From Escherichia phage phi92: DNA of 64,000 nucleotides. The position numbers and the translations under genes are program-made. The notes below the pieces were generated by a model. The model saw nothing but the letters and a program-made list of their open reading frames with translations, ran no database searches and was not told where the DNA came from. The stretch lies in sequence record NC_023693.1, one strand, 5' to 3'. The stretch's first letter is position 1. Every line of letters starts with the position of its first letter. Shown piece by piece: positions 4,707 through 51,938 of the stretch.

Positions 4707-6668
4707 GTGATTTTAACACGTCCAAATAGTGCCATTGCAGACATGGTAGAGTCTCGCTATAGAAAGCGTAGAAGTTTTGCAAGTGGTTTTACCTTAAGAG
4801 ATGCTCGTGAAGCATTGCTCTTTGAAACTGACGGTAACTACTATCAGTGGAAAGGTTCTCTACCTAAAGTTGTACCTGCTAACTCTACTCCTACATCTAC
4901 TGGAGGGATTTCAGATACAGCTTGGAAAAATGTGGGTAATGCAGATGACATTGCTCAAATAGAATCAGAATTAGATGCTATTGAAGCTGAAATTGAAGAT
5001 CTTAGAGAATCCATCCCAGAAGCTGGTAAATCAGCTTACCAAATTGCCGTAGACAATGGTTTCCAAGGTACTGAGACACAGTGGTTGGCTTCTTTAAAAG
5101 GTGATCCAGGTGCTCCATTAAAGCTACTAGGGACGCTATCTAATACCAACCAATTACCTACAACTGGAAACAATGCAGGGGATGCATGGATTGTAGGCGA
5201 GAATATGTATGCTTGGGATGGTACTGCTTGGAGAAAAGTAAACTCACAGGGGCCAGAAGGTAAATCTGCTTATGAAGTATGGCTTGCAGCAGGAAACGAA
5301 GGTACAGAACTAGATTATCTTGCCGCAATTAAAGGTGATAAAGGGGAGCCTGGCCCAGAGGGGCCACAAGGTGTGCCAGGTAATAATGCTAATGGTTTTG
5401 ATTACCAAGGCGCAGCTAATTCCGTTTCAGATCTTCCTTCTGCATCTCCTGGAAACACATCTCAAGCATGGAGTATTGGTACATATCTATACGTGTCAAA
5501 CGGTGTAGAATGGATCAATATGGGCGCTATAGTGGGGCCAAAAGGAGATAAAGGCGACAAAGGAGATAAGGGTAACACTGGTGATTCAGCTTATCAAGTC
5601 TGGTTAAATGCTGGTAACGTTGGTACTATTGACGAATATATTGCCTCTCTGAAAGGAGAAAAAGGTGATAAGGGAGACAAGGGTGATCAAGGTGCACAGG
5701 GTATACAAGGCTTGACGGGGCCAACTGGTGCAGGGTTGACCATTATTGACATTCTGACTAGCACTTCTGAACTACCACAAACTGGAGAAGATGGTGATGG
5801 TTATCTGATCAATAATGAACTTTGGGTCTGGTTGCAAGGAGCCACAGAGTGGACAAATGTTGGTCGTTTAGCTGGTACTCCAATCACTGCAAAAGGATAC
5901 GTTGCGTCTGCAAGTGCACTTCCTCCTACAGCCAATTACGGTGATGCTTATCTGACGGAAGATACAGGTCATCTTTACATTTACACCTATGATGAACAAA
6001 CTCAAACTGCTGAATATGTAGATATGGGTAGTTTGAAAGGTGATAAGGGTGAAAAAGGTGACGCTGGTACTAACGGTACAGACGGTGCAACTTGGATTGT
6101 TAAAACAACAGATCCAATCTCTAGTGATGGTAAACAAGGTGATTATGCCTTTAATATCTCCACTGGCGAGGTGTTCTTAAAAACATCTGCAACTATCTGG
6201 ACTTCTCAAGGTACACTACCTAGTATCACAGATGCACCTAGTGATGGTAAGACTTATGCTCGTAAAGATGGAGCATGGGAAGAACTCACTAATTCTGTAG
6301 ATGGTCAAGATATAGTTCCAACAAAAGTAACAACTAATTTTATAGAGGTTACAGCATATACTAACAATTCTGTTACAGGGGACTGGACACCTCCAGGAAC
6401 ACATAACATGAATGTGTTGAATCTTACTGGTAACTCTACTATAAAAGCATGGCCTGGTGTCGAAGATAGCACAAAACCTAAACCATTCTCTGCAATAGTT
6501 TATCTTATCCAAGATGCCACTGGAGGTCGTACTGTTACTTTAGATCCATCTTACAAAGTAATTGGTTCCAGTGATATTAATACAGATCCTAACGGAGTAA
6601 CAATACTACAACTAACATATTGTGGTGTTGGCGATTACGTGGATGCTATTGTTGCTAAACGCACATAA
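4707..6668 (+). CDS. tail fibre with collagen-like G-X-Y repeats
   Basis: 653 aa; runs GDKGEPGPEGPQGVPG and GPKGDKGDKGDKGNTGD and GEKGDKGDKGDQGAQGIQGLTGPTG; RBS aaggag. Confidence 0.6.
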   Translation: MILTRPNSAIADMVESRYRKRRSFASGFTLRDAREALLFETDGNYYQWKGSLPKVVPANSTPTSTGGISDTAWKNVGNADDIAQIESELDAIEAEIEDLRESIPEAGKSAYQIAVDNGFQGTETQWLASLKGDPGAPLKLLGTLSNTNQLPTTGNNAGDAWIVGENMYAWDGTAWRKVNSQGPEGKSAYEVWLAAGNEGTELDYLAAIKGDKGEPGPEGPQGVPGNNANGFDYQGAANSVSDLPSASPGNTSQAWSIGTYLYVSNGVEWINMGAIVGPKGDKGDKGDKGNTGDSAYQVWLNAGNVGTIDEYIASLKGEKGDKGDKGDQGAQGIQGLTGPTGAGLTIIDILTSTSELPQTGEDGDGYLINNELWVWLQGATEWTNVGRLAGTPITAKGYVASASALPPTANYGDAYLTEDTGHLYIYTYDEQTQTAEYVDMGSLKGDKGEKGDAGTNGTDGATWIVKTTDPISSDGKQGDYAFNISTGEVFLKTSATIWTSQGTLPSITDAPSDGKTYARKDGAWEELTNSVDGQDIVPTKVTTNFIEVTAYTNNSVTGDWTPPGTHNMNVLNLTGNSTIKAWPGVEDSTKPKPFSAIVYLIQDATGGRTVTLDPSYKVIGSSDINTDPNGVTILQLTYCGVGDYVDAIVAKRT

Positions 6669-6672
6669 TCAA

Positions 6673-6697
6673 AGCCCCTTCGGGGGCTTATTATTTA
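6673..6697 (+). terminator. rho-independent terminator hairpin
   Basis: AAGCCCC-TTCG-GGGGCTT followed by a T-rich run after the fibre gene. Confidence 0.5.
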
Positions 6698-6707
6698 AGG
6701 AGATTAA

Positions 6708-7316
6708 ATGTATCCTATTCCTTTATTTATGTCAACAACATCAGCTTCAGTAGTAACAGCTACATCTATAACTACTTCCTCTATTGGTATTGCAATAGTT
6801 GGTGGTAAAAAACAACTGACATACACAGTTACACCGGAAGATGGTGCATTATTTGATATAGCTTTTTCATCTTCAGATAATACCAAAATGGTTATAGATA
6901 ATAGTGGTATGATGGAGTTTGTTGCCGAAGGTGGTTTTGATGCAATAATGACAGCTAAAAATAATTTAGGTGCTGTCTTAACTGATCAATCTGGTGGCTA
7001 TGCTTCAGAATTAAGTGTGTACACTGAAAGTCTATCGGCTATGGATGTAGGCACTACTCAACAGTTGGTTGCTACAATCAGTCCAGAAGGTGCTAAAGAC
7101 CTTCCAGATATGGTAATTACATACACCACAACAGATCCAGAAGTAGCTACTGTAAGCCCTACAGGGTTAATAACTGCTCTTAAAGATGGCGGTTGCCGTA
7201 TAGGTTGTACTGCAACGTATCAAGGAACAGTTGTGGCCTCTGATAGGTCTTATTTAGGTGTTAATGCTATTCCTGTTATTTCTAATGTAACAGCCGTATC
7301 TTTAATAACTCAATAG
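6708..7316 (+). CDS. Ig-like (Big_2-type) domain protein
   Basis: 202 aa; T/S/V-rich beta-sandwich-like sequence with ...VATVSPTGLITALKDGGCRIGCTATYQG resembling bacterial Ig-like group 2 domains. Confidence 0.45.
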   Translation: MYPIPLFMSTTSASVVTATSITTSSIGIAIVGGKKQLTYTVTPEDGALFDIAFSSSDNTKMVIDNSGMMEFVAEGGFDAIMTAKNNLGAVLTDQSGGYASELSVYTESLSAMDVGTTQQLVATISPEGAKDLPDMVITYTTTDPEVATVSPTGLITALKDGGCRIGCTATYQGTVVASDRSYLGVNAIPVISNVTAVSLITQ

Positions 7317-8370
7317 CTACAGATGATTCGTTCATTAAAGAAGTTATTGTCTTTGCTGGACAAGATAACGTAAATGCACACTTTACAGAACTATCTGGTG
7401 CAAATAAAGCAGCAATGAGTAGCACAACAGCCCGTAATGCATATGCTACGCAACGTGGTTTAGCAAATGCTGAAGTTCTTCCGTGTTAAATACAGCTTCT
7501 GGATCATCAGCAGCAGATAAATATGCTGACGATAAAGCTGGAACAGGTACACCAGATAACTACTGGTATGATCTGGATAACACAGCAGATGGGCCATGCT
7601 TAACTAACTTTATCACTAAAGTCACACCTTATGCAAGTAAGGTTAAAGCAATTATTTGGGGACAAGGTGAAAATGATGCTGTATCAGCATCTTCGACTGT
7701 TGCAGGTAGGTACAGTAACACTACACGTTACCATGATGCTACGATAGCTATCTTTGATAAGATGCGTACAATAGTTCCTGCTTCTCAAGCAAAAATTGTT
7801 TGGCAGATCCTAGGACGTTCTTATTTATATGGTGTAGAAGTTAATGGTGTGGATTGGCAGAAGTACAGAAATGTACAAAGAACCATCTCTACAGCACGTG
7901 ATGATGTTATCATTGGTTCTTGGGTAGATGGTGCTGAACGTTACAGTGGTTATGTTTATGAAGAAGGTATTGATGGTCGTATCCATTATATTTCTTCTGT
8001 ATACCAAACAGCAGCTACAAAACTTGCTAAATCAGCAGCAGACGGTACAGATTTAACATCAACGTCACCTGTTTGGGTTGATATGTCTGTTCCAACAGGA
8101 GGAGCCGCTGTAAGACAAGCTAACCAAGATGTAATTATCTCTTGGGAACCAGCAGGATATACTAAACATTACTTCCGAAATGTAAACGTCCTCACAGCAG
8201 CAATTCTTACAGAACAAACCCTGGATACTAACACTTACACATTTACTTATGCAGATCAGGTTGAACAATATGGATTTGCAGCAGGTACAACAGTGTTTGA
8301 TGTTGCACACTATGATGCTGATAATGACGTGTTATCACCTCTTGTCAGATTTACAGTCAATGTTACATAA
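7286..8370 (+). pseudogene. SGNH/SASA-type carbohydrate esterase, reading frame interrupted
   Basis: N-terminal block FIKEVIVFAGQDNVNAHF is in one frame (about 7286-7489, no ATG start); remainder with IIWGQGENDA continues in another frame from GTG 7483 to 8370. Confidence 0.45.
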
Positions 8371-8377
8371 ACAAAAA

Positions 8378-8402
8378 GGAGCCATTAGGCTCCTTTTCTT
8401 TT
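8378..8402. terminator. bidirectional terminator hairpin at convergent strand switch
   Basis: GGAGCC-ATTA-GGCTCC flanked by A-run and T-run; + strand genes end at 8370, - strand genes end at 8406. Confidence 0.5.
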
Positions 8403-8405
8403 ATC

Positions 8406-8837
8406 TTAATCAGTGAAAATTACGCTTACATCTTCTTTAGAGAAGAGTTTATGATCTTCACCTTTTGTCTCAAGAGTTTCATACAGATTAAGAAGTTCTG
8501 AAACGTCTTTCTCTACCAGTTTCTTCAATGTTGCAATTTTCTGTTTGCGACTCTTAATACGTTCAGCTACAACCTTACGCTGGTATCCGGCAGTACGATA
8601 ACCTGAGAAAGTTACACCAGTGAGACTTGCAGTTACAGGATCGTAGTGACGTTCAATCTGAAATTTATTAAAAGGTACAGCGTCATCACGAATAATCTTA
8701 CCGCCATTACTTACTTGACGAAGACCAGTAACTTGCTCCAGTCGTGCCATAGAAATCTTTGGAGACAGACCAGAGTCTAGGTTCATACCATTGTTAATCA
8801 GTGCTTTCAGGGTGATTTTGCTGTTCAGTGTACTCAT
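8406..8837 (-). CDS. hypothetical protein
   Basis: 143 aa ORF; strong RBS ggagga upstream of the start; start overlaps the methyltransferase 3' end by 44 nt. Confidence 0.4.
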   Translation of the reverse strand: MSTLNSKITLKALINNGMNLDSGLSPKISMARLEQVTGLRQVSNGGKIIRDDAVPFNKFQIERHYDPVTASLTGVTFSGYRTAGYQRKVVAERIKSRKQKIATLKKLVEKDVSELLNLYETLETKGEDHKLFSKEDVSVIFTD

Positions 8838-9525
8838 TTAGTCGTTCCTCCGCTTGCTTAAAAATATTTACATCGGCTTCACAGCCAAAGTATTCTCTAC
8901 CTGTTAAAAGTGCCGCAACTTGTGTTGTTGCACTTCCAGAGAAGAAGTCTAAGACTACATCTCCTTCGTTGGTGTGTATATTAATAAGGTCACAAAACAA
9001 AGTCAAGTGTTTTTGTGTTGGATGAAAACGATCTGCTCCTTGATAGATAGGATACTCAAACACACCCTTATGGTAGGAAGCATTGAAGGTTGGCTTCGAA
9101 CCTTTAACACAAACAATAGCCATCTCTTTAGCGTTACTAAGATAGTTAACACCACTGTTGATGGGTACAGGGTTTGTTTTAATCCATTCAATAGTACGGA
9201 ACATACGAAAACCAAGCGGTTCAAGGATTTCACGTAGCTCCTGGATCTTCCAGATATCATACCAAACTATGCAAGTACCACCTTTTCTAAGCACCCTGTA
9301 GGCTTCTTTGAATACTTCTTTAAAGTAAGGAATATCTACAACATCCCAATCACCAAAGTTGTAAGATACACGGAATCTATCCGTATCTTTTCCAGTCGGC
9401 TCTCCAGATTGAAAATTTGTGTCACGAGAAATAGCATATGGTGGGTCAGTAAGAATCAAATCTACACTATTGCTTTCGAGGGTTTGCAGGTAGTTTAATG
9501 CGGTGTTGTTTACAAATTCGCTCAT
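8794..9525 (-). CDS. DNA methyltransferase (N6-adenine or N4-cytosine, DPPY type)
   Basis: Motif IV LILTDPPYA precedes motif I VVLDFFSGSATT; RBS aaggag; no restriction endonuclease gene recognised nearby. Confidence 0.7.
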   Translation of the reverse strand: MSEFVNNTALNYLQTLESNSVDLILTDPPYAISRDTNFQSGEPTGKDTDRFRVSYNFGDWDVVDIPYFKEVFKEAYRVLRKGGTCIVWYDIWKIQELREILEPLGFRMFRTIEWIKTNPVPINSGVNYLSNAKEMAIVCVKGSKPTFNASYHKGVFEYPIYQGADRFHPTQKHLTLFCDLINIHTNEGDVVLDFFSGSATTQVAALLTGREYFGCEADVNIFKQAEERLNEYTEQQNHPESTD

Positions 9526-9545
9526 TATATCTCCTTCAAAGAAAA

Positions 9546-9565
9546 GGAGCCGTTAGGCTCCTTAT
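9546..9565 (-). terminator. terminator hairpin
   Basis: GGAGCC-GTTA-GGCTCC with T-rich tail on the - strand, just downstream of the SSB-like gene. Confidence 0.45.
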
Positions 9566-9585
9566 ATTCACACAATACTTAACTA

Positions 9586-10533
9586 TTAGAAACAGTGCAG
9601 GAAGTTTCGACCATACTGCAAACCAATAGGAGCAAATGGGATATCATCATCGAAATCTTGAACAACAGGTTCTGATTCTTTCGGTGCTGGCTCTTTCTTC
9701 TCTACTTTTTTAGTTTCTTTCTTAACTTCTTGTACTGAGGTAGACATTCCACGGATAGCAGCAGCTACTTTATCAGACAAAGCAAGAACTTCACGAGCAG
9801 CTTCAATAATCTCTTCTGCCGTTACAGTTTTACCTGTATGATCACGACAAGCGTTAAGAATTGCGTGTCCAACTGAAGCACCAAGATCATAGTCAGTCGC
9901 AGCAGCGCCACGATCTTTAGCAATTTCTGCTTTCAGAGTAACAGTTGCAGATTGTACCACACCAGCCAAGTCGAAAGCATCACCTTTCACACCAGCACGT
10001 AGAAGCTCCAGAGCGCCGTTTACAGCGTGTCCTGTTTCAATCCCTACGGTATCACGTTTTTTGTAGTTAGGCTTGCTACCTTCGTTATTAGATGGCTTAT
10101 TTCCACCTTTTGAAGAAGATTGTGCTTGCTGAACACCTTCTGTTGAAAGAACAGTGATTTTACCTTTAGAGGAGTTGTAGTATGTTTTGCCATTCCATTC
10201 GGAAGGTTTAACATCTATAGTTACTTCTACACCTTTTTCGATAGTAATCCACTTATCACCATCTTTAACTTGCAGGTTTTCATGTTCTGGGTGCAGTTTA
10301 ACTTCACCTAGGCTAACCCAAACACCTTTATCATCAGCACCAGCACCTTTCTCTTTAATAAGCAGAGATGCTTTGTGAGTTGATTCAATTTTCTTATCTG
10401 GCTGACCTGCAACCTTAATATAAGAGACTTTCATTTCATCAAACTTATCCAGTTTGACATATTCAACGATACCTTCAGCCCAGAATGCTTCTTTTTTAGT
10501 ACGACGGTCGATTTCAGAATTAATTACTGGCAT
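9586..10533 (-). CDS. ssDNA-binding-like protein with SSB C-terminal-tip motif
   Basis: 315 aa; RBS gaggag; contains DFDDDIPF, identical to the acidic tip of bacterial SSB, near the C-terminus; Gly/Ser-rich linker before it. Confidence 0.45.
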   Translation of the reverse strand: MPVINSEIDRRTKKEAFWAEGIVEYVKLDKFDEMKVSYIKVAGQPDKKIESTHKASLLIKEKGAGADDKGVWVSLGEVKLHPEHENLQVKDGDKWITIEKGVEVTIDVKPSEWNGKTYYNSSKGKITVLSTEGVQQAQSSSKGGNKPSNNEGSKPNYKKRDTVGIETGHAVNGALELLRAGVKGDAFDLAGVVQSATVTLKAEIAKDRGAAATDYDLGASVGHAILNACRDHTGKTVTAEEIIEAAREVLALSDKVAAAIRGMSTSVQEVKKETKKVEKKEPAPKESEPVVQDFDDDIPFAPIGLQYGRNFLHCF

Positions 10534-10549
10534 AAATTCTCCTCTATAA

Positions 10550-10948
10550 TTACATTACTTTAACACAAAACTCTCGTAAAAGAGTAGCGTCAGTTTCTTC
10601 CAACAGGTATTTACCAAGACCAATACCAAATCCTATTTCACCACTTTCGAAATGGAGGATTTGTATCTTTTCTCCACCAAGGTTAATTACTTTTGCTTTT
10701 CCAGGATTATCCAAAACATCTCGTATTGTATCCTGTAGTAGCATTAGTTCACGTTTTGTGATAGTGGTTTCAGATATCTCTTTGTTTTCTACTCTCACTG
10801 TTAAACGGTTGTATCCACCAAAGAGACATAGTATTTGAATAAAAAAGGTATTATCTTGAGGTTCAACATCTTTTTTAGTTAGCTCAAGACGATTAGTTTC
10901 TCTACTGTAGAACGTCTCGACTAAGATTTTAGAACGATTATCTGTCAT
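10550..10948 (-). CDS. hypothetical protein
   Basis: 132 aa ORF with RBS gagga. Confidence 0.4.
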   Translation of the reverse strand: MTDNRSKILVETFYSRETNRLELTKKDVEPQDNTFFIQILCLFGGYNRLTVRVENKEISETTITKRELMLLQDTIRDVLDNPGKAKVINLGGEKIQILHFESGEIGFGIGLGKYLLEETDATLLREFCVKVM

Positions 10949-10991
10949 TCAAGTCCTCATAATAACACATAATTACAATGTTTGTCAACAC

Positions 10992-11585
10992 TTAAATTTT
11001 AAATTCTTCATTGTTAAATGAATCCAGTGTACGTACTTCTGGTTCTTTGGGAATGAAAACGTCTTTTACAAAGCGGAACATAGGGAAACGTTCTGCCATT
11101 TTACGGACGTGTGCTTCTTTACCTGTGTATCGGTGATTAATAGTGCAAATATTAGTTTTCAATGCAAATTCAAAATCTGGATGATATACATAATTTTGAC
11201 CATCCCAGTAACACAAGCAAATAGCTACATCAAAGTTCCATACGATTTCACTGCGTACACCTTCTTCCATGATCATAAAGTTAAACTTAAGATCTTTATA
11301 GTATGCTTCAAATACCCATTTCAAATGTGGTAGTTCGGCATAAGTGTGTTCTGTTTGCTTAGTAAGTTGTTTAACATTACGTGCACCAACACCCAACATC
11401 AAAAATTTCTCTACTAATACGAGTGTATTGTGGTTAGGCATACGCAAGTAAATATCAATATCTTGCGCAGGTTTCTCTAATCGCCAATCACGTACAGCGC
11501 CGCCAGCTACAATTGCAAACGGATCTACCAGTTGGCACATACGTAATACTTCTAAAGCTCGTACTTTTTGATCTTCAATATTCAT
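10992..11585 (-). CDS. nucleotidyltransferase (Pol-beta superfamily, CCA-adding-enzyme-like head)
   Basis: Motif IVAGGAVRDWRL...DIDIY matches the GGxVRD...DxD nucleotidyltransferase signature; RBS aggag. Confidence 0.45.
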   Translation of the reverse strand: MNIEDQKVRALEVLRMCQLVDPFAIVAGGAVRDWRLEKPAQDIDIYLRMPNHNTLVLVEKFLMLGVGARNVKQLTKQTEHTYAELPHLKWVFEAYYKDLKFNFMIMEEGVRSEIVWNFDVAICLCYWDGQNYVYHPDFEFALKTNICTINHRYTGKEAHVRKMAERFPMFRFVKDVFIPKEPEVRTLDSFNNEEFKI

Positions 11586-11722
11586 ATTTTCTCCTATCTC
11601 TTATGGTCTTTGCGTTATTCTAGATGTTCAAACATCTAATTATGAAATGGTTTAAAAGTGCGGAACAACCTTGGCAATAACAGATTGTTCCACATAAAAA
11701 CTCCTTTAAAATCAAAGAGTTG

Positions 11723-14700
11723 TCAGTGACAAGTTGACCATGAACTACCAACATCGTAACCAGCAGTGAGAGGTACATTAAGATTGTAATACTCACCAGC
11801 TTTATTAACAGCGATAGATGCTAATTCTCCAGCACGACTGTAGGCTGTAAACCAACCACCTTTCGGAGATTCATGTACGTTAGCCCAAATCTTGCCAGTA
11901 CGTTTCTCTTCCTCTTCTTTCCAGGCATTAACTTTATCCAAACATTCTTTATCAATTTTCTTTTGTTCCTCTGGATCATCAACTTGAGTCCAACCTAAAG
12001 ATTCTTTAGAGAACCATTTAAAATGCACCAGATCACGAGTTACTTCAAGCTGTGCTTCATCGTGATATGCAATCATTTGTTGAACGAATGACTTATTTTT
12101 CCAGTCATCAACAAAAAAGTCAACAGCTAATCCTTCTTCTTCGATAAGATCGTCGTAGATAACCATTGCTCTTTTTGCACAAATAACACCACCACTCTGG
12201 AACAGAGAGTTAAGTATTGCGTGTGCAGATCGTGTAGGTACTTTCCTACCATCAATACCAAGAATGTATTTCTTACCTGTTTTAACCCAAAAATCATGCA
12301 GACGTTCTTTAAGAAGCGCAAGAGGTTTTGCAGCTTCCCAGAAAGCATCGTATACAAGCTGTCCTGTATACATATCACTACCTATAGTTTTTGCTACTTT
12401 TGCAGCTTGAGCACCATAAGTAATACCATACTTAACAGATTTAGCAGGGCTTCGTTCAAACTTACGACCAATAGTGTCAGAAATACGTCGAGCCATCATT
12501 GTATGAACATCATTAGGTTTTTCCAATAATAGAGCATTACAATATTCGTGTGGTTCCTGCTCGTACCGCCAACAATTCCCTGTAATCGTGATGCAGTCTT
12601 TCTGACGCATAACCCATGTACCGAGTTCTGTTTGTGGACACCAAACATCTTCTACACCCCATTCTTCAATAGTCAGACTTTGAACAGGGATGTGAGAGCG
12701 GTTAGCCAACGTTGCCACTTTTACTTTCTGGTCTTTCGTATTGAAGGCTACAGAAATATTACCCCCATGAACCAGGTATGAGGCAGTTAAGGCTGCTTCA
12801 AAAAGTTCTCCTGGGTTCTGCGCCCAGCGCCAAACAGGTTTTTGTTTATGTTTGTGCCAGTAACCATCCGCAATCAAAAAACCTTCCAAGAAAGCCACAC
12901 GCTCGGCATGAGACATATTAACTACACGTTCTACCCACGGAACATCCCATTTACCTTGTTGAACAGAAGTTAAACTATTTACTTGATCTTGTTCCATGTT
13001 AAATGGAGCATTACAAATAATGTTATCTCCTGTGCAAAGCTCGGCAGTTGTTCTGACTTTAGGCACATAAGTATTCCCTGTACTACGAGTATTAACATAC
13101 CAACGGTGATCTGCTGTTGCACGATAAGTATGGGATTTTCCTTTAATCTCAAACGTCTTACTATTTTTATAGAAGACCTTACCTTTTACTTTAGTCCATT
13201 CTTTAAGTCCTGTTTCTGGGTTATATCCTAAGATTTCATCCCCTTCTTGTAGATCGTGATAACCAACCCAACCTTTACGGGTTAGTGCTTGTGCATCCAT
13301 AGGTACACAGTAGTGTGATTCTATTTTTGCCTCAAGAGAATCAAAGTCATAACCAATTTGGAAGTATTTTGGAACTTCTACACCAAATAAGTTACGCATT
13401 TCATATCCGTACAGAGATGTTACACGTGGGATATTTGCTACTAACCTATGTTTCATACGAGACGTAGCTGCATCACACGTTGCAGCAGGAGTTGGTATAC
13501 GACCATCAGCCCTTACTGCTGCCAGATAACCTTTATCGTAATCCTCTTCATCTTCTTCCCAATCAGCACCACCTCCTAGAATAGAGTTCCTACGGTGTTT
13601 ATACGTAAGATACTGCACAATCTGCGTAGCATAAGGAAACTTTTCACCTAGTGCTTCCAAGTTAGGACAAATATCTTTCTCTTGCCCTTTTGTAAAGGAA
13701 GGGTTAGTAAGCACTTTAACACCACGACCTTTAGCTTTAGCAATACGATCTCTTAGTTTCCATTCCAAAGTTTCTGGTGTGCACTCCAGATGATCACATC
13801 TGTCCTGGCAGAAGTTAGATGCCAATGTTTGATCAACATAGTCACGAATAGCTTTCTCCATTTGTGCTTCATCTTTCTTAATCTTAGTGCCAGATTTAAG
13901 AGTGATATCTTTATCTTTATATTCAGATGGACTCCAACCTAAACCAACTAACCAGTTTTTAATATGTGTCGTGTCGTCTAAAGTAGCAGGTACTGTAGGA
14001 TCACAAATAGGTTCTTCTGCTGGAATAGGTAGTTTAAACTCTTTACCTAAAGCAAATAACCACCAACCATCTTCTTTTTGTACAAGTTCACCAGAATGTT
14101 TCTCTGCAAACTTTATCATGTTACTTGAAGGTTCACCATTCTTTTTAAACTGTAGTTTAGGTGGAATGAATGATTTCAAATAACCTTTAGTAGCAGGTTT
14201 AGGAGGTAGCACAGGTTCTGCCTCTAAACGACATGCTTCCATTCGAGCATCCAGATCACGAATATTATCTTCTGCTTGTTTCATATTGAAAGCAAAGCCA
14301 CGGTGCTCTTGACGTGTAATAATATCCGCTACACGTTGTTCTAAGTTAAATGGTTCAGACCACTTATTATAATCACCCCACTCTTCCATCAAATAACGGA
14401 ACACTGCGGTGTTAGCTTTGTTATCGTAAATACAGTAATACAGCATATCTGCTGCAAATGTTTTAAATCTTTCAGTTTCAGGGATATTTTTTCTAAAATC
14501 AATTTTAACATCCCCTCCAGCTTTCTTAGATAACTCTGCCAGACTATGACCACCGAAGCGATCAGGGTTTAGTGTCTTACTTAAGATCATAGTATCACAA
14601 ATTTCAATGTTACTATTACCCCAAGTATTGTACTTAATACTGTAGTTGAGTTTAAAAAATAATTTAATTGCCAGTAAGTCAAAGTTAATGATGTTATGTC

Positions 14701-15037
14701 CAACTACTTTGGTAATTTTATAGTTTGAATTACCTTTAAATTTACCTGTTCCATTTACAAAATCAGGAAAATCTTTAAGAGGGAAATGGGTATATTCTAA
14801 ATGCTCATATTCCTCCAGTCGGTATTCATACTTTCCGTCAGTCTCAACATACGGACGACCATCGAAAAGATATTTATCACCATCATGGAAAGCAATAATC
14901 TCTCCAGTATCATGACTTTCGCACACAATACAGTGCATTGCAAAACTATCTTTTAAACGATATGGACTTGCCAAGTAATCTACACTTTCGTCATTAAGCA
15001 AGTTGTTACTTTCAATGTCGAAAGTAAAAGCTCCCAT
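11723..15037 (-). CDS. family A DNA polymerase with 3'-5' exonuclease domain, interrupted by an intein
   Basis: Exo I FDIES; motif A DFDSLEAKI; motif B RSPAKSVKYGITYG; motif C YHDEAQLEV; in-frame insertion between motifs A and B. Confidence 0.8.
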   Translation of the reverse strand: MGAFTFDIESNNLLNDESVDYLASPYRLKDSFAMHCIVCESHDTGEIIAFHDGDKYLFDGRPYVETDGKYEYRLEEYEHLEYTHFPLKDFPDFVNGTGKFKGNSNYKITKVVGHNIINFDLLAIKLFFKLNYSIKYNTWGNSNIEICDTMILSKTLNPDRFGGHSLAELSKKAGGDVKIDFRKNIPETERFKTFAADMLYYCIYDNKANTAVFRYLMEEWGDYNKWSEPFNLEQRVADIITRQEHRGFAFNMKQAEDNIRDLDARMEACRLEAEPVLPPKPATKGYLKSFIPPKLQFKKNGEPSSNMIKFAEKHSGELVQKEDGWWLFALGKEFKLPIPAEEPICDPTVPATLDDTTHIKNWLVGLGWSPSEYKDKDITLKSGTKIKKDEAQMEKAIRDYVDQTLASNFCQDRCDHLECTPETLEWKLRDRIAKAKGRGVKVLTNPSFTKGQEKDICPNLEALGEKFPYATQIVQYLTYKHRRNSILGGGADWEEDEEDYDKGYLAAVRADGRIPTPAATCDAATSRMKHRLVANIPRVTSLYGYEMRNLFGVEVPKYFQIGYDFDSLEAKIESHYCVPMDAQALTRKGWVGYHDLQEGDEILGYNPETGLKEWTKVKGKVFYKNSKTFEIKGKSHTYRATADHRWYVNTRSTGNTYVPKVRTTAELCTGDNIICNAPFNMEQDQVNSLTSVQQGKWDVPWVERVVNMSHAERVAFLEGFLIADGYWHKHKQKPVWRWAQNPGELFEAALTASYLVHGGNISVAFNTKDQKVKVATLANRSHIPVQSLTIEEWGVEDVWCPQTELGTWVMRQKDCITITGNCWRYEQEPHEYCNALLLEKPNDVHTMMARRISDTIGRKFERSPAKSVKYGITYGAQAAKVAKTIGSDMYTGQLVYDAFWEAAKPLALLKERLHDFWVKTGKKYILGIDGRKVPTRSAHAILNSLFQSGGVICAKRAMVIYDDLIEEEGLAVDFFVDDWKNKSFVQQMIAYHDEAQLEVTRDLVHFKWFSKESLGWTQVDDPEEQKKIDKECLDKVNAWKEEEEKRTGKIWANVHESPKGGWFTAYSRAGELASIAVNKAGEYYNLNVPLTAGYDVGSSWSTCH
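12575..13309 (-). other. intein inside the DNA polymerase gene (boundaries approximate)
   Basis: Starts CVPMDAQALTRKGW after motif A, contains TADH block and LAGLIDADG-like FLEGFLIADGYW, ends ...ITITGN before CWRY; extein then resumes with NDVHT as in T7 polymerase GDIHT. Confidence 0.5.
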
Positions 15038-48993: not shown

Positions 48994-50121
48994 ATGAAAT
49001 ACACGATTTATGGTGATATTGTAAGTGTAAATAAAGATATGGGCGTGGAATCTAACTATCTTCCACCTGGATTCTATACTGTTAGTCGTGATCCCCTTGG
49101 CAATTATTTTTTAAGCCGTGGTAATCTAACAGGTGTACCGGATGTTCTGTATGGTGAAACAGAAAAACGAGCAAATCACGTTATTCGTACATTCCATCGC
49201 CGGAGTGCACAAGGTAAAAATACAGGCTTGCTTCTGACAGGAACTAAGGGCAGTGGTAAAACTATGTTAGCCAAGCTCATTAGTCGTGACCTTGTAGAAG
49301 AAGGTATTCCAACTATTATGGTTACTCAAGCCTACAGTGATGCTAATTTCATTGAACTTATTAGCAAGATCACCGACAAAGCAGTAATTATTTTTGACGA
49401 ATTTGATAAAGTATACGAGAAGAAACAAGATCAAGAAGCACTTCTCACTTTGTTAGACGGTACTGGTAGTGGTAATAAACTGTTTATTTTGACTAAAAAC
49501 AGTGGTTTTATCTCGGAATTCTTTTTAAATCGTCCTAGTCGTGTGTTTTATAATTTTAATTATGATAAAATCTCACTAGAAACCATGATTGACTATTTAG
49601 ATAAAAACCTGGATAACAAAGCACACTTTGATAATTTCCAAAGACTTTGGGATGTAAGTTTAGAGTTGTCCTTTGATGTGATCCAAGGTATAGTAGAAGA
49701 ACTTAATTTCTACCCTGATTTATCCTTTAAAGAATGCATCTCTATGATGGGTGTTTCTTTAGGTGGTGGTAATAAATGGGATATCAGCAGCGTTGTTATT
49801 AATGGAAAACTTCAGAAAGTTAGCTGGGTATCTAGTTGGCATAACTTTACACCTGCAATCTTTTTAGGTGGCTCGTGCACACTAGACGTGTACTTGTCAT
49901 CTCCAAGTGATGCAGATTCTAAAGAAGCCCTTGCTAATAGCTCTTACGTGGTTTTTGATGATGAAGGCGATGCTCGAATTCCATTGAACGCAACAAAAAT
50001 GAAAGCAGATCTTATTACAGGCGGTAAAATCGTTGTGTTTAGTGATGATCCAGAAGATTCTTTCCGTATTGTTCTGGAACCAACTATCACCAATGGTGCA
50101 ACTTTGGCAAGCGTGTTTTAA
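48994..50121 (+). CDS. P-loop ATPase (paralog of 32537-33697)
   Basis: Walker A GTKGSGKT, Walker B IIFDEFDKV; collinear similarity to the - strand ATPase over most of its length. Confidence 0.5.
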   Translation: MKYTIYGDIVSVNKDMGVESNYLPPGFYTVSRDPLGNYFLSRGNLTGVPDVLYGETEKRANHVIRTFHRRSAQGKNTGLLLTGTKGSGKTMLAKLISRDLVEEGIPTIMVTQAYSDANFIELISKITDKAVIIFDEFDKVYEKKQDQEALLTLLDGTGSGNKLFILTKNSGFISEFFLNRPSRVFYNFNYDKISLETMIDYLDKNLDNKAHFDNFQRLWDVSLELSFDVIQGIVEELNFYPDLSFKECISMMGVSLGGGNKWDISSVVINGKLQKVSWVSSWHNFTPAIFLGGSCTLDVYLSSPSDADSKEALANSSYVVFDDEGDARIPLNATKMKADLITGGKIVVFSDDPEDSFRIVLEPTITNGATLASVF

Positions 50122-50135
50122 GTAAGCCAGCAAAT

Positions 50136-50160
50136 AAAAACCCGCTTCGGCGGGTTTTCT
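50136..50160 (+). terminator. rho-independent terminator
   Basis: AAAAACCCGC-TTCG-GCGGGTTTTCT. Confidence 0.55.
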
Positions 50161-50195
50161 TGCATTAATGCCAGATTTAATAAGAGGAGTAGTAG

Positions 50196-51386
50196 ATGGC
50201 AGCACCAAAATCATGGGAACAATATAAAGAAGAGTGTCAACCAATAGCAGAGAGTAAGCAAATCCAAATCTTAGGATGGACGGGAGAATGGAAAGGGAAC
50301 AAGACTAAACTTAAGCTATCTTGCTCTGATCATGGAGAGTGGAACACCACGAACATTAATGATTTTAAGAATGGACGTGGTTGTCCGGCATGTACAAGTA
50401 ATAAGTCGTTAACATGGGAAACAGAATTGCCGATCTTAGAAGAGATAGCACAGAAGAAGGGGTATCAAGTGTTAGGGTACGTTGGAGAATGGAAAGGGGT
50501 TAATACAAAACTTGATTTGTTGTGTCATTGTGGGAATAGATGGCAAAGTACAATTATTAAGACATTTAAACGTGTAAATGGTTGTCCACAGTGTAGAATA
50601 GAGAAGGTAAAGCAAGCCAGTACGAAGTCAGATGATGAAAGGATCGCCTCTTTCCTTGCTAAGCGGGATTATCCAGAAGGAACTATCTTTAAACGATCTG
50701 ATCGGACTACCTTGCAAGGTCGTGCAGTTTATTGGTTTGTGTATTGCCCTATCTGTGCACAAGATGAAATAACGAAAGCTGGGTTATGTAGTGGATGGTT
50801 TGAAAGTACAGCAGGGGATTTGCAAAAAGGGACTGCCGCTTGTCGTTGTAGTAAGTCCCCTAAATACACAGACGATCAGAATACATTCCGTGCAATGAAG
50901 GTATGCGAGGATAACGGTTATCAGTTTGTTGGTTGGGTTGATAAGGTAGGAACACAGTCTAAGTTTAAATATCTGTGTCCAGAACACGGGGTACAAATTA
51001 TAACATTGGGTAGTATGGTTAGGGGTCATGGATGCCCTGAATGTGCTGGTAATAGTCAACAGCAATTATATATTAACATTGTTAAAGATAATGATATTAC
51101 CGTTGCTCTTAAGTTTGGCATAGCTAAAGATAGCGACAGGCGATTAAACAGTCAAAATAGCCGTAATCTGTTTTTTATGGAGCGTATTTGTTTATATGAT
51201 TTTAGTACAGTGAAACAATGTAAGGCTACTGAAAGAGCTATAAAGAAAAAATTAAAAACTGGTATTTTAACGGCAAGAGAGTTGAAAGACGGTTATACAG
51301 AAACAGTAAGTGTTTCTGATTTGGAAAATCTTCAAAAAATTATTACACAATATGGTGGCAAATTGGTATATAGTAAGGAGGTGTAA
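50196..51386 (+). CDS. zinc-ribbon repeat protein with C-terminal T5orf172 (GIY-YIG-like) domain
   Basis: Repeated units GW.GEWKG..TKL.L.C..HG.W...GCP.C; C-terminal LYINIVK...ALKFGIAKDSDRRLNSQN. Confidence 0.5.
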   Translation: MAAPKSWEQYKEECQPIAESKQIQILGWTGEWKGNKTKLKLSCSDHGEWNTTNINDFKNGRGCPACTSNKSLTWETELPILEEIAQKKGYQVLGYVGEWKGVNTKLDLLCHCGNRWQSTIIKTFKRVNGCPQCRIEKVKQASTKSDDERIASFLAKRDYPEGTIFKRSDRTTLQGRAVYWFVYCPICAQDEITKAGLCSGWFESTAGDLQKGTAACRCSKSPKYTDDQNTFRAMKVCEDNGYQFVGWVDKVGTQSKFKYLCPEHGVQIITLGSMVRGHGCPECAGNSQQQLYINIVKDNDITVALKFGIAKDSDRRLNSQNSRNLFFMERICLYDFSTVKQCKATERAIKKKLKTGILTARELKDGYTETVSVSDLENLQKIITQYGGKLVYSKEV

Positions 51387-51938
51387 ATGCGGATTACTGA
51401 TAAGTATGTGTTCTTCTTCTCGGCAAAAGATGAATTTAGCAACTGGTATCTATCATCTTTTATTGAACCTTTAGCACCCAAGTATAATAACTCTATTACA
51501 AGTTCTGTTGAATTTACTTGTGTGGAACAATATATGATGTGGAGAAAAGCATGTTTGTTTTATGATTACAATATTGCATCTTCTATTTTAATCGGAGATC
51601 TCAGATATACAGGAGAAAAAGAACAAGCATATTATAAGCGACTAGGTAGATTAGTTAAAGATTATGATGAAGACACCTGGACTTCTTTACGGGAGAAGAT
51701 TGTCAAACGTGGTTTGTATCTTAAATACACACAAAATGAAGATCTCAAAAATAAACTTATCGCTTACGCAGATAAGGAGTTCGTAGAGGCAAGCCCCTAT
51801 GATTCTATTTATGGTATCAAAATGGGGATGTGGGATCGGGACGTGGAAAATAAGGATTGTTGGAAAGGACAAAATCTTTTAGGAAAATGGCATACAGACC
51901 TTGCTGTTTATCTAAAAACACAATCTGATATTTCCTGA
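51387..51938 (+). CDS. NADAR (YbiA-like) domain protein
   Basis: FFFSAKDEFSNWYLSSF, EQYMMWRKA and EASPYDSIYGIKMG blocks match NADAR signature positions; RBS aaggagg. Confidence 0.5.
   Translation: MRITDKYVFFFSAKDEFSNWYLSSFIEPLAPKYNNSITSSVEFTCVEQYMMWRKACLFYDYNIASSILIGDLRYTGEKEQAYYKRLGRLVKDYDEDTWTSLREKIVKRGLYLKYTQNEDLKNKLIAYADKEFVEASPYDSIYGIKMGMWDRDVENKDCWKGQNLLGKWHTDLAVYLKTQSDIS

What the first reader, a model, noticed from the sequence alone, without database searches (positions are those of the whole stretch)
8794..9525. Orphan DPPY DNA methyltransferase at the border of the tail and replication blocks
A beta-class (motif IV before motif I) N6-adenine or N4-cytosine methyltransferase has no recognisable partner endonuclease in the window. 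This is consistent with anti-restriction self-methylation of the phage genome.
Basis: partly seen in the sequence, partly recalled or inferred. Interest (0 to 1): 0.4.

Follow-up and report, generated by a model that had tools for sequence, protein, structure and literature searches.

The report
Phage methylase with disarmed endonuclease partner
A phi92-like E. coli phage carries a real DNA adenine methylase, already annotated in its relatives, and the small gene overlapping its end proves to be a conserved, nuclease-less remnant of the CATG-type restriction enzyme that partners this methylase family in other phages and bacteria.

Summary
Window 8794..9525 (-) encodes a 243-aa beta-class DPPY amino-methyltransferase (Pfam PF01555 3.4e-30; closest structure M1.HpyAVI). 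It lies between the tail block and the replication block of a Justusliebigvirus (phi92-like) phage. Relatives already annotate the gene as a methyltransferase.

"Orphan" is only half right. Homologs at 45-56% identity abut an ICEA (IceA1/NlaIII-type, CATG-cutting HNH) endonuclease gene in 58 of 166 loci, and no other endonuclease family recurs beside them. The window has no ICEA gene.

The 143-aa ORF that overlaps the methylase 3' end (8406..8837) is homologous to the ICEA N-terminal domain (hhalign 95%, E 2.8e-8; a full ICEA protein bridges the two families at HMMER E 2.3e-7). It lacks the whole HNH/zinc domain and is modelled as a winged helix plus a long helix. It is under purifying selection and travels with the methylase in distant phages.

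Best reading: a former CATG restriction-modification module whose nuclease was disarmed. The methylase probably makes C(m6A)TG, so any protection is narrow. That fits published sensitivity of phi92-like phages to six non-CATG RM systems. Target, activity and the small protein's role are inferred, not shown.

The parts
8794..9525 (-). 243-aa beta-class N6-adenine (DPPY) DNA methyltransferase CDS, equivalent to muut gp036
   Evidence: ORF; PF01555 3.4e-30; 5hek 1.8e-28; fold; at least 99% identical in 53 Justusliebigvirus records
9436..9447 (-). Motif IV, DPPY (aa 27-30), the catalytic/target-base pocket
   Evidence: Read from the sequence; D27, P28 and P29 invariant in the 51-sequence alignment; D27 aligns with the essential D29 of M1.HpyAVI
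8923..8949 (-). Motif I, DFFSGSATT (aa 193-201), SAM binding. It lies C-terminal to motif IV, which gives the beta-class order
   Evidence: Sequence; D193, F195 and G197 invariant
8406..8837 (-). 143-aa ORF overlapping the MTase 3' end by 44 nt: a nuclease-less derivative of the ICEA/NlaIII-type endonuclease (winged-helix N-domain plus long helix, no HNH)
   Evidence: purifying selection; phrog_20244, unknown function
8583..8816 (-). Segment of the small ORF (aa 8-85) homologous to the ICEA N-terminal domain; the modelled winged-helix part
9531..9536 (-). Shine-Dalgarno AAGGAG, 5 nt upstream of the MTase ATG
   Evidence: Read from the sequence
8846..8851 (-). Shine-Dalgarno GGAGGA for the small ORF, 8 nt upstream of its ATG and inside the MTase coding sequence (translational coupling)
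   Evidence: Read from the sequence; N-terminal residues conserved in homologs, supporting this start
9544..9563 (-). Terminator-like hairpin AAGGAGCC-TAAC-GGCTCCTT followed by a T-run, between the SSB-like gene and the MTase
   Evidence: the core motif occurs only twice in the window
8373..8398 (.). Bidirectional terminator-like hairpin between the small ORF and the convergent tail gene. It is a near-identical copy of the upstream hairpin

Best explanation
The gene encodes an active, SAM-dependent, beta-class Type II N6-adenine DNA methyltransferase. By analogy with M1.HpyAVI it probably works as a dimer. It descends from the modification half of an ICEA (IceA1/NlaIII-type) restriction-modification module.

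In this phage lineage the endonuclease gene was not deleted. It was reduced to a 143-aa protein that keeps the N-terminal winged-helix domain, presumed to bind DNA, and has lost the entire HNH/zinc nuclease domain. The two genes form one cassette with overlapping reading frames. The small ORF's ribosome-binding site lies inside the MTase gene, and terminator-like hairpins bracket the pair.

The MTase most likely methylates the adenine of CATG on replicated phage DNA before packaging. That would make progeny DNA resistant to NlaIII/IceA-type endonucleases of hosts or of competing large phages, and to nothing else. The small protein most likely binds DNA without cutting and acts together with the MTase as a regulator, targeting factor or shield.

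Shown here: the MTase family, fold and motifs; the recurrent ICEA linkage; the homology of the small ORF to the ICEA N-domain and its lack of HNH; its conservation. Inferred: the CATG target, enzymatic activity in vivo, the protective role, and what the small protein does.
For: MTase identity. Catalytic D27 and cofactor residue E216 align with D29 and E216 of M1.HpyAVI.

ICEA linkage: a bacterial homolog (P0068) and a phage-contig homolog (P0113) each abut a PF05315 gene. ICEA is adjacent in 56 of 160 scanned loci and in 58 of 166 on the tree, scattered through almost all clades. No other endonuclease family recurs beside the MTase.

Specificity retention: the window enzyme keeps 63 of 73 positions that are at least 90% conserved in ICEA-linked MTases. 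Its 45-56% identity to them lies within their own 44-98% range.

Small ORF as ICEA remnant: hhalign 95.5% and 95.2%, E 1.6e-8 and 2.8e-8, against a 3% control. An exhaustive HMMER search finds P0182 at E 2.3e-7. P0182 is a full ICEA protein with the HNH motif, lying directly downstream of and overlapping a 46%-identical MTase. The small family has no invariant His or Cys and ends close to where HNH begins.

Literature: IceA1 and NlaIII cut CATG and hpyIM methylates CATG. m6A in CATG blocks NlaIII. BASEL sensitivity to six non-CATG systems fits a narrow specificity.
Against: No methylome or digestion data exist for these phages in the searched literature.

The CATG assignment rests on ancestry at about 50% identity. 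Five strongly conserved positions differ non-conservatively (K125G, D152H, P173H, K183I, Y221I), two of them in the putative recognition region.

The ICEA homologs seen here are themselves uncharacterised and diverse.

CATG is strongly under-represented in the phage (O/E 0.64 in the window, 0.56 in muut, down to 0.13 locally). That would be unnecessary if methylation gave full protection.

ICEA endonucleases were not found in 50,697 cultured phage records and in only one plasmid, from Priestia. The threat in E. coli hosts is therefore not evident.

The sample of loci was seeded with an alignment containing two ICEA-linked MTases, which may inflate the ICEA fraction.
Confidence: 0.6

Rival explanations
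1. Same ancestry, but the specificity has drifted. After the nuclease was lost, the MTase was free to change target and now methylates a motif other than CATG.
For: Identity to ICEA-linked MTases is only 45-56%. There are non-conservative changes at K125G and D152H in the putative recognition region. CATG is avoided in the genome, as if unprotected. A single loop residue (P41) changes the substrate range of the closest solved homolog.
Against: 63 of 73 family-conserved positions are retained, and the post-DPPY loop is nearly invariant across both partner classes. ICEA-linked MTases are just as divergent from one another (minimum 44%) yet share the same partner family.
Confidence: 0.3
2. The methylation is not primarily anti-restriction. 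The cassette serves phage physiology, for example timing of replication, transcription or packaging, or marking phage versus host DNA, in the manner of Dam or CcrM-type orphans. The winged-helix protein would read or direct the mark.
For: The cassette sits at the end of the replication block, next to SSB-like and polymerase genes. The phage is RM-sensitive in practice. ICEA-type enemies were not detected in cultured coliphages or enterobacterial plasmids. In H. pylori, hpyIM is reported to affect gene expression. The cassette is strictly conserved in all 54 close relatives.
Against: No CATG sites lie in or near the cassette or its flanks that could act as an operator. No direct evidence for any regulatory target was found. 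The family's repeated pairing with a nuclease points to a defence or counter-defence origin.
Confidence: 0.2
3. One reading: a plain solitary orphan MTase giving general anti-restriction protection, with an unrelated neighbouring ORF.
For: Relatives annotate the neighbour as hypothetical, and the BME3 paper calls these MTases orphans. Pfam, NCBIfam and PADLOC find nothing in the small ORF.
Against: Profile-profile and exhaustive HMMER searches link the neighbour to the ICEA N-domain. The pair co-occurs and overlaps in distant phages. Phi92-like phages are highly RM-sensitive.
Confidence: 0.08
4. The cassette is still a working restriction system. The small protein supplies sequence recognition and recruits a nuclease encoded elsewhere, such as one of the phage's HNH or T5orf172 proteins.
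For: Relatives carry several free-standing HNH genes, and the window has a CapR/T5orf172 protein. The recognition-like domain is preserved under selection.
Against: No nuclease gene is linked to the cassette in any of the 8 loci of this clade. The HNH genes are variably present, as homing elements are. No precedent was found.
Confidence: 0.04
5. The enzyme is an N4-cytosine, not an N6-adenine, methyltransferase.
For: PF01555 covers both activities. Rotifer N4CMT and M.PvuII are among the structural hits.
Against: The motif is DPPY with an invariant Asp. The best sequence matches are adenine enzymes: M1.HpyAVI, CcrM, and the NCBIfam adenine-specific models. All characterised CATG MTases found in the literature make m6A.
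Confidence: 0.05

Closest known systems
iceA1-hpyIM locus of Helicobacter pylori (HpyI, CATG)
   Same: An ICEA-family endonuclease gene sits next to a CATG adenine MTase. In most strains the endonuclease is inactivated while the MTase is kept. The window shows the same overall outcome.
   Different: In H. pylori the decay is by frameshifts and indels. Here the remnant is a clean ORF that forms a conserved protein family under purifying selection. From my own knowledge, untested here, hpyIM is about 330 aa and of a different class. The window MTase is a 243-aa beta-class enzyme, and the gene order here is MTase first.
NlaIII restriction-modification system (Neisseria lactamica, CATG)
   Same: It is the prototype of the ICEA/PF05315 endonuclease family that partners this MTase clade in 58 of 166 loci.
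   Different: The window has no HNH nuclease domain. It is therefore not a restriction system.
M1.HpyAVI (PDB 5hek/5hfj), the closest solved homolog
   Same: A small beta-class N6-adenine MTase of about 240 aa with DPPY, a minimal TRD, a flexible post-DPPY loop and the conserved D29/E216 equivalents. It is dimeric.
   Different: Foldseek reports only about 23-28% sequence identity to its chains. It recognises GAGG/GGAG/GAAG and belongs to a two-MTase system. The window enzyme's TRD is shorter, and its loop is a highly conserved sequence specific to its own clade.
Phage-encoded orphan DNA methyltransferases (e.g. T4/P1 Dam; review cited)
   Same: A phage gene that methylates phage DNA without a cognate nuclease and is generally interpreted as anti-restriction.
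   Different: Dam-type enzymes are alpha-class and GATC-specific. This one is beta-class, of ICEA R-M ancestry, and is coupled to a remnant of its endonuclease.
CcrM (GANTC cell-cycle orphan MTase)
   Same: Beta-class PF01555 fold, and the top Foldseek hit (6pbd, E 9e-18).
   Different: The NCBIfam CcrM equivalog scores 98 bits against a cut-off of 830. The window enzyme lacks the CcrM C-terminal domain.
Controller (C) proteins of R-M systems
   Same: A small DNA-binding protein encoded inside an R-M module.
   Different: From my own knowledge, C proteins are Xre-type HTH proteins of about 80-100 aa, usually upstream of the R gene. The window protein is a winged helix derived from the endonuclease itself, lies downstream of M, and has no HTH_3-type Pfam hit.

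Membership tests
Beta-class N6/N4 amino-DNA methyltransferases (Pfam PF01555) | Whole-protein score above the Pfam gathering threshold, covering the full model | tested here: met
   106.1 bits against 26.7; model positions 1-221 of 221
Beta-class N6/N4 amino-DNA methyltransferases (Pfam PF01555) | Circular permutation with motif IV (D/S-PP-Y/F) N-terminal to motif I (FxGxG-like) | tested here: met
   DPPY at aa 27-30; DFFSGSATT at aa 193-201
Beta-class N6/N4 amino-DNA methyltransferases (Pfam PF01555) | Rossmann-like MTase fold superposable on solved beta-class enzymes | tested here: met
   AF2 pLDDT 82.6; Foldseek E 9e-18 to 3e-15 to CcrM, M1.HpyAVI, RsrI, MboIIA and PvuII
Beta-class N6/N4 amino-DNA methyltransferases (Pfam PF01555) | SAM-dependent methyl transfer to DNA | not testable with these tools
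   Needs an enzyme assay or a methylome. The catalytic and cofactor residues D27 and E216 are present.
N6-adenine (as opposed to N4-cytosine) subclass | Asp in the first position of motif IV (DPPY, not SPPY/F) | tested here: met
   D27 is invariant in 51 homologs. This is a rule of thumb from the literature, not proof.
Complete Type II restriction-modification system | A cognate active endonuclease gene linked to the MTase | tested here: not met
   No ICEA or other REase in the window or in the muut genome. The linked ORF has no HNH/zinc motif.
ICEA / NlaIII-type endonucleases (Pfam PF05315), for the 143-aa ORF | Pfam ICEA hit above threshold | tested here: not met
   No Pfam hit at E<=0.01
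ICEA / NlaIII-type endonucleases (Pfam PF05315), for the 143-aa ORF | HNH catalytic motif (E-DHK-G ... N ... H/C-xx-C) and C-terminal Cys cluster | tested here: not met
   The family has no invariant His or Cys. The protein ends close to where the motif starts in ICEA.
ICEA / NlaIII-type endonucleases (Pfam PF05315), for the 143-aa ORF | Homology of the N-terminal domain | tested here: met
   hhalign 95.2%, E 2.8e-8. HMMER E 2.3e-7 to the full ICEA protein P0182. It is therefore a derivative of the family, not a member in the functional sense.
CATG-specific adenine methyltransferases | Methylation of the A in CATG, or protection from NlaIII | not testable with these tools
   Inferred only from linkage of the clade to ICEA endonucleases and from the literature on IceA1/NlaIII.
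CcrM equivalog (NCBIfam NF050803) | Score above the curated equivalog cut-off | tested here: not met
   98.3 bits against 830
R-M controller (C) proteins | Xre-type HTH domain | tested here: not met
   No HTH Pfam hit. The structural matches are winged-helix, not Xre-type.

The most novel reading that the evidence does not exclude
The 143-aa protein is a domesticated recognition domain of a restriction endonuclease that phages have kept as a functional partner of the methylase. It might act as an anti-restriction factor, shielding CATG sites or poisoning NlaIII/IceA-type enzymes by forming inactive hetero-oligomers. Alternatively it might be a trans-acting targeting or regulatory subunit for the MTase. 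Either role would make it a previously undescribed class of phage protein derived from the defence enzyme it counteracts.
Probability: 0.15. Interest if true: 0.7.

Novelty: new variant of a known kind. Interest (0 to 1): 0.4.

Why it matters
The methylase on its own is routine. It is annotated in more than 50 GenBank records and matches a well-known family.

This analysis adds three things. First, a concrete and cheaply testable prediction of its target (CATG, tested with an NlaIII digest of virion DNA). This explains why phi92-like phages carry MTases yet remain highly sensitive to the RM systems usually tested.

Second, evidence that the "orphan" state arose by disarming the partner nuclease, not by deleting it. 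That left a small protein family (43 representatives among 1.84 billion proteins) that selection has preserved in several lineages of large phages.

Third, the observation that intact ICEA-plus-MTase modules are common on large uncultured phage contigs. If the remnant has a function of its own, it would be an example of a defence-enzyme domain being recycled by viruses.

Tried and rejected
- Literature on methylation of phi92-like phages: nothing found. The Durham Collection modification paper does not cover phage Paula. The BME3 paper only lists MTase CDSs. A CATG/phage search gave no relevant phage methylome. The primary IceA1 paper (PMC137426) is not held.
- Candidate partner nucleases. Window 50196..51386, called 'endonuclease' in relatives, is CapR x4 + T5orf172, lies 40 kb away and is not a REase. 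The HNH gene next to the nucleotidyltransferase in VEcB is absent here and variably present, as a homing element would be.
- Other 'DNA methyltransferases' annotated in muut. gp003 is an XkdF-type protease domain, gp182 has no Pfam domain, and only gp169 is a real C5 MTase. All lie outside the window.
- Idea that the small ORF is a diverged complete nuclease (HNH, PD-(D/E)xK or GIY-YIG): rejected, because the family has no invariant His or Cys and no such motif.
- Idea that the flanking hairpins mark a mobile cassette: rejected, because the cassettes in distant phages are not flanked by them.
- Motif statistics as a read-out of the target: inconclusive. CATG is avoided rather than tolerated, and unevenly so.
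- The cassette is absent from 5,426 complete E. coli genomes. ICEA is absent from cultured phage records and nearly absent from plasmids.
Full report
**What is there**

The window is a phi92-like myophage of the genus Justusliebigvirus. Positions 6500-12000 are 97-98.7% identical to Escherichia phages muut, VEcB, Paula, Eryne and about 50 others. The reported ORF exists exactly as described: ATG to stop at 8794..9525 on the minus strand, 243 aa.

DPPY is at aa 27-30. The SAM-binding motif DFFSGSATT is at aa 193-201, so motif IV precedes motif I, which is the beta-class order. The supporting matches are:
- Pfam PF01555 (N6_N4_Mtase), full-length, E 3.4e-30
- PHROG 67, 6e-56
- PADLOC MTase_II, 3.6e-46
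- NCBIfam: only sub-threshold similarity to adenine-specific models; the CcrM equivalog scores 98 bits against a cut-off of 830
- closest solved protein: M1.HpyAVI of H. pylori (5hek, E 1.8e-28), then CcrM

An AlphaFold2 model built on 51 homologs (pLDDT 82.6) matches beta-class enzymes CcrM, M1.HpyAVI, N4CMT, RsrI, MboIIA and PvuII at Foldseek E 1e-17 to 1e-15. The low-confidence parts of the model (aa 33-40 and 46-61) correspond to the loop after DPPY. In M1.HpyAVI that loop is invisible without DNA and is thought to contact DNA. In the window's family it is among the most conserved stretches. D27 and E216 align with D29 and E216 of M1.HpyAVI, the residues shown there to be essential.

The gene is the last but one of the minus-strand replication block (primase/helicase, DNA polymerase, nucleotidyltransferase, SSB-like ORF). 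That block converges on the plus-strand tail genes. The gene is also already annotated as a methyltransferase in relatives.

**Is it an orphan?**

No intact endonuclease is present. The one gene in the window that relatives call 'endonuclease' (50196..51386) is a CapR x4 + T5orf172 protein 40 kb away.

The family's usual partner became visible from homolog contexts. A bacterial homolog (P0068; 57% by BLASTP) lies directly upstream of a PF05315 ICEA gene. A homolog on phage-like contigs (P0113, 55%) is abutted by an ICEA gene with a 1-nt overlap.

I then took 80 viral and 80 bacterial or archaeal loci found with an MTase alignment. In 56 of these 160 an ICEA gene directly adjoins the MTase on the same strand. 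With five further loci and the window, the count is 58 of 166. These are scattered through nearly every clade of a neighbour-joining tree.

In loci without ICEA, the neighbours are a second PF01555 MTase in tandem or housekeeping genes. No other endonuclease family recurs.

ICEA proteins carry a clear HNH/zinc signature: E-DHKNG-YD ... NDAKREHCKRC ... CxGCYW. According to the literature, IceA1 is a CATG-recognising endonuclease homologous to NlaIII, and its partner hpyIM is a CATG adenine methylase. Neither the window (best tblastn E 1.6) nor the complete muut genome contains any ICEA-like sequence.

**The overlapping downstream ORF**

A 143-aa ORF (8406..8837, minus strand) starts 44 nt before the MTase stop codon. 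A GGAGGA Shine-Dalgarno lies 8 nt upstream of its ATG, inside the MTase gene. PHROGs lists it as a family of unknown function, and Pfam, NCBIfam and PADLOC find nothing.

The same arrangement, an overlapping ORF of about 135 aa downstream, occurs next to MTases that are 60-70% identical. Those sit in uncultured phages with entirely different neighbourhoods, next to PhoH in one and next to DHFR and thymidylate synthase in another. The ORFs are homologous to the window's at 36-39% identity with shared motifs. In the locus survey the small ORF occurs only with the closest MTase relatives, which form one clade.

The family is very small: 29 clusters in the 5.8-billion-protein collection, and 43 representatives at E<=1e-3 among 1.84 billion proteins, nearly all 125-143 aa.

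Against muut, VEcB and two viral contigs, the small ORF shows 9-12 synonymous codon changes and 0-1 non-synonymous. It is a protein under purifying selection, not a decaying pseudogene.

**What the small ORF is**

Four ICEA ORFs gave weak hits to the small-family HMM, so I compared profiles. hhalign of the 28-sequence small family against 52 ICEA ORFs gives 95.5% probability and E 1.6e-8. The session tool, against a separate 34-sequence ICEA alignment, gives 95.2% and E 2.8e-8 over 75 columns. The same query against the MTase alignment gives 3%.

The aligned part is residues 8-85 of the small protein and the N-terminal half of ICEA, before the HNH motif.

The exhaustive HMMER search independently found P0182 (206 aa) at E 2.3e-7 for the whole library. 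P0182 is a bona fide ICEA protein (Pfam 1.6e-16) with the full HNH/zinc motif. Its N-terminus reads like the small family. It lies directly downstream of a 46%-identical PF01555 MTase, overlapping it by 4 nt, on a phage-like contig. That is the same layout as in the window.

The small family has no invariant His or Cys and ends close to where HNH begins in ICEA.

The ORF is therefore best described as the N-terminal winged-helix domain of an ICEA/NlaIII-type endonuclease. That domain is presumably the DNA-recognition domain. Here it is fused to a long helix and lacks the nuclease.

**The cassette**

Terminator-like hairpins sit immediately upstream of the MTase (9563..9544, minus strand) and between the small ORF and the convergent tail gene (8373..8398, bidirectional). 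Their core, GGAGCC-nTTA-GGCTCC, occurs only at these two places in 64 kb, with 0 expected by chance. Cassettes in distant phages are not flanked in this way. I therefore read the hairpins as local terminators, not as ends of a mobile element.

**How it most likely works**

Shown:
- an intact beta-class adenine-type MTase
- its clade's recurrent pairing with ICEA endonucleases
- a conserved, translationally coupled, nuclease-less ICEA derivative beside it

Inferred:
- The MTase is the surviving modification enzyme of a CATG-type R-M module.
- It still methylates CATG to C(m6A)TG on replicated phage DNA, protecting progeny only against NlaIII/IceA-type enzymes.

Support for retained specificity:
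- The window enzyme keeps 63 of the 73 positions that are at least 90% conserved among 53 distinct ICEA-linked MTases.
- Its identity to them (45-56%) lies within their own spread of 44-98%.

Caveats:
- Five of the ten differences are non-conservative, and two (K125G, D152H) lie in the putative recognition region.
- The ICEA homologs here are uncharacterised.
- The locus sample was seeded with two ICEA-linked sequences.
- CATG is strongly under-represented in the phage: O/E 0.64 in the window, 0.56 in muut, and 0.13-0.49 across 1-32 kb, but 1.1-1.4 at 48-64 kb. Full methylation protection would not predict this.

The BASEL study found phi92-like phages exceptionally susceptible to RM. Its six systems (EcoKI, EcoCFT_I, EcoRI, EcoRV, EcoP1_I, EcoCFT_II) do not include a CATG enzyme. 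This rules out broad protection but not narrow protection.

ICEA genes were not found in 50,697 cultured phage records and in only one plasmid, and the cassette is absent from complete E. coli genomes. The relevant enemy may be rare in E. coli, or may be other large phages: 22 of the 80 viral loci carry intact ICEA-plus-MTase modules.

The role of the small protein is open. DNA binding without cleavage, in concert with the MTase, is the most economical guess. Regulation, targeting, site shielding and dominant-negative inhibition of ICEA enzymes cannot be told apart here.

**Comparison with what is known, and verdict**

Loss of the nuclease from an R-M pair, leaving an orphan MTase, is well known. 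The iceA1-hpyIM locus is the textbook case for this very endonuclease family. The MTase itself is a new member of nothing: it is annotated in GenBank, and the BME3 paper calls it an orphan.

The new element is that the nuclease remnant forms a conserved, selected protein family, coupled to the MTase in several phage lineages.

I rate this as a new variant of a known kind, of moderate interest (0.4). The MTase identity is near-certain. The remnant homology is strong, at about 0.85. The CATG target stands at about 0.5. The biological role is unproven.

Noticed in passing
window 6708..7316 and 7483..8370 (+); junction near 7291-7297: The tail protein is a single 1887-nt CDS in muut and VEcB (Big_2 Ig-like and SASA-like parts). 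Here a 224-bp out-of-frame deletion splits it into two ORFs of 202 and 295 aa. All close relatives in the database carry the extra segment. It could be a real tail variant or an assembly error.
   Followed up: partly
window 11723..15037 (-), insertion at aa 577-821 (about nt 12575-13309): The family-A DNA polymerase is 1104 aa here, against 859 aa in muut. The difference is a 245-aa in-frame insertion that begins with Cys and ends GN|C, which looks like an intein. Pfam detects no Hint or homing-endonuclease domain in it.
   Followed up: partly
whole window, and muut genome (L003-L005, L016): Avoidance of 6-bp palindromes is extreme. AAGCTT is 0 against 19 expected (0 against 44 in the muut genome). 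GGTACC, GGATCC, CGATCG, CAGCTG, AGTACT, AGCGCT, CCATGG, GGCGCC and others are all 0. GAATTC and GATATC occur at about the expected frequency, which fits the reported EcoRI/EcoRV sensitivity.
   Followed up: partly
window, 8-kb bins: CATG avoidance is regional. O/E is 0.48, 0.49, 0.28 and 0.13 over 1-32 kb (3 observed against 23 expected at 24-32 kb), 0.56-0.60 at 32-48 kb, and 1.10-1.39 at 48-64 kb, the region of many small ORFs. GATC also rises to 1.3-1.6 there. No CATG occurs in 8000-10000. Unexplained.
   Followed up: partly
window 8378-8393 and 9546-9561: The hairpin core GGAGCC-nTTA-GGCTCC occurs exactly twice in 64 kb, at the two edges of the MTase and small-ORF cassette, with 0 expected by chance. 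It is not found at the cassette edges in distant phages.
   Followed up: yes
window 48994..51938 (+): A three-gene run: an AAA/STAND-like ATPase (375 aa), a CapR x4 + T5orf172 protein (396 aa, called 'endonuclease' in RefSeq) and a NADAR-domain protein (183 aa). Its function was not examined.
   Followed up: no
GenBank MG065639, MG065656, MG065689 (hits H1-H3): Three records named 'Campylobacter phage A150/C3/A110a', with host listed as C. jejuni, are 98.7% identical to this E. coli Justusliebigvirus over 5.5 kb and carry the same MTase at 99.6%. The host attribution looks doubtful.
   Followed up: no
muut NC_052657 gp003 (L005 2398-2877) and gp182 (L005 42014-42523), outside the window: RefSeq names both 'DNA methyltransferase'. 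gp003 matches only the XkdF-type phage protease domain (PF14550, 2.5e-11), and gp182 has no Pfam domain. Only gp169 (C5, PF00145) and the gene studied here are clear MTases. The 'four MTases' reported for BME3 may therefore be an over-count.
   Followed up: partly
viral loci such as L027, L031, L040, L047, L050, L060, L063 and L014, L177: Intact ICEA (NlaIII-type) endonuclease plus beta-class MTase modules sit on large uncultured phage contigs of 125-358 kb (22 of the 80 viral loci). No ICEA gene is found in 50,697 cultured phage records. Complete CATG-type R-M systems therefore appear to be carried by large phages that are not yet in culture.
   Followed up: partly
L002 (VEcB) 6319-6915, compared with window ~11590-11720: VEcB and several relatives carry an HNH endonuclease gene between the nucleotidyltransferase and the DNA polymerase. 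It is absent from the window and from muut, consistent with a mobile homing element.
   Followed up: no
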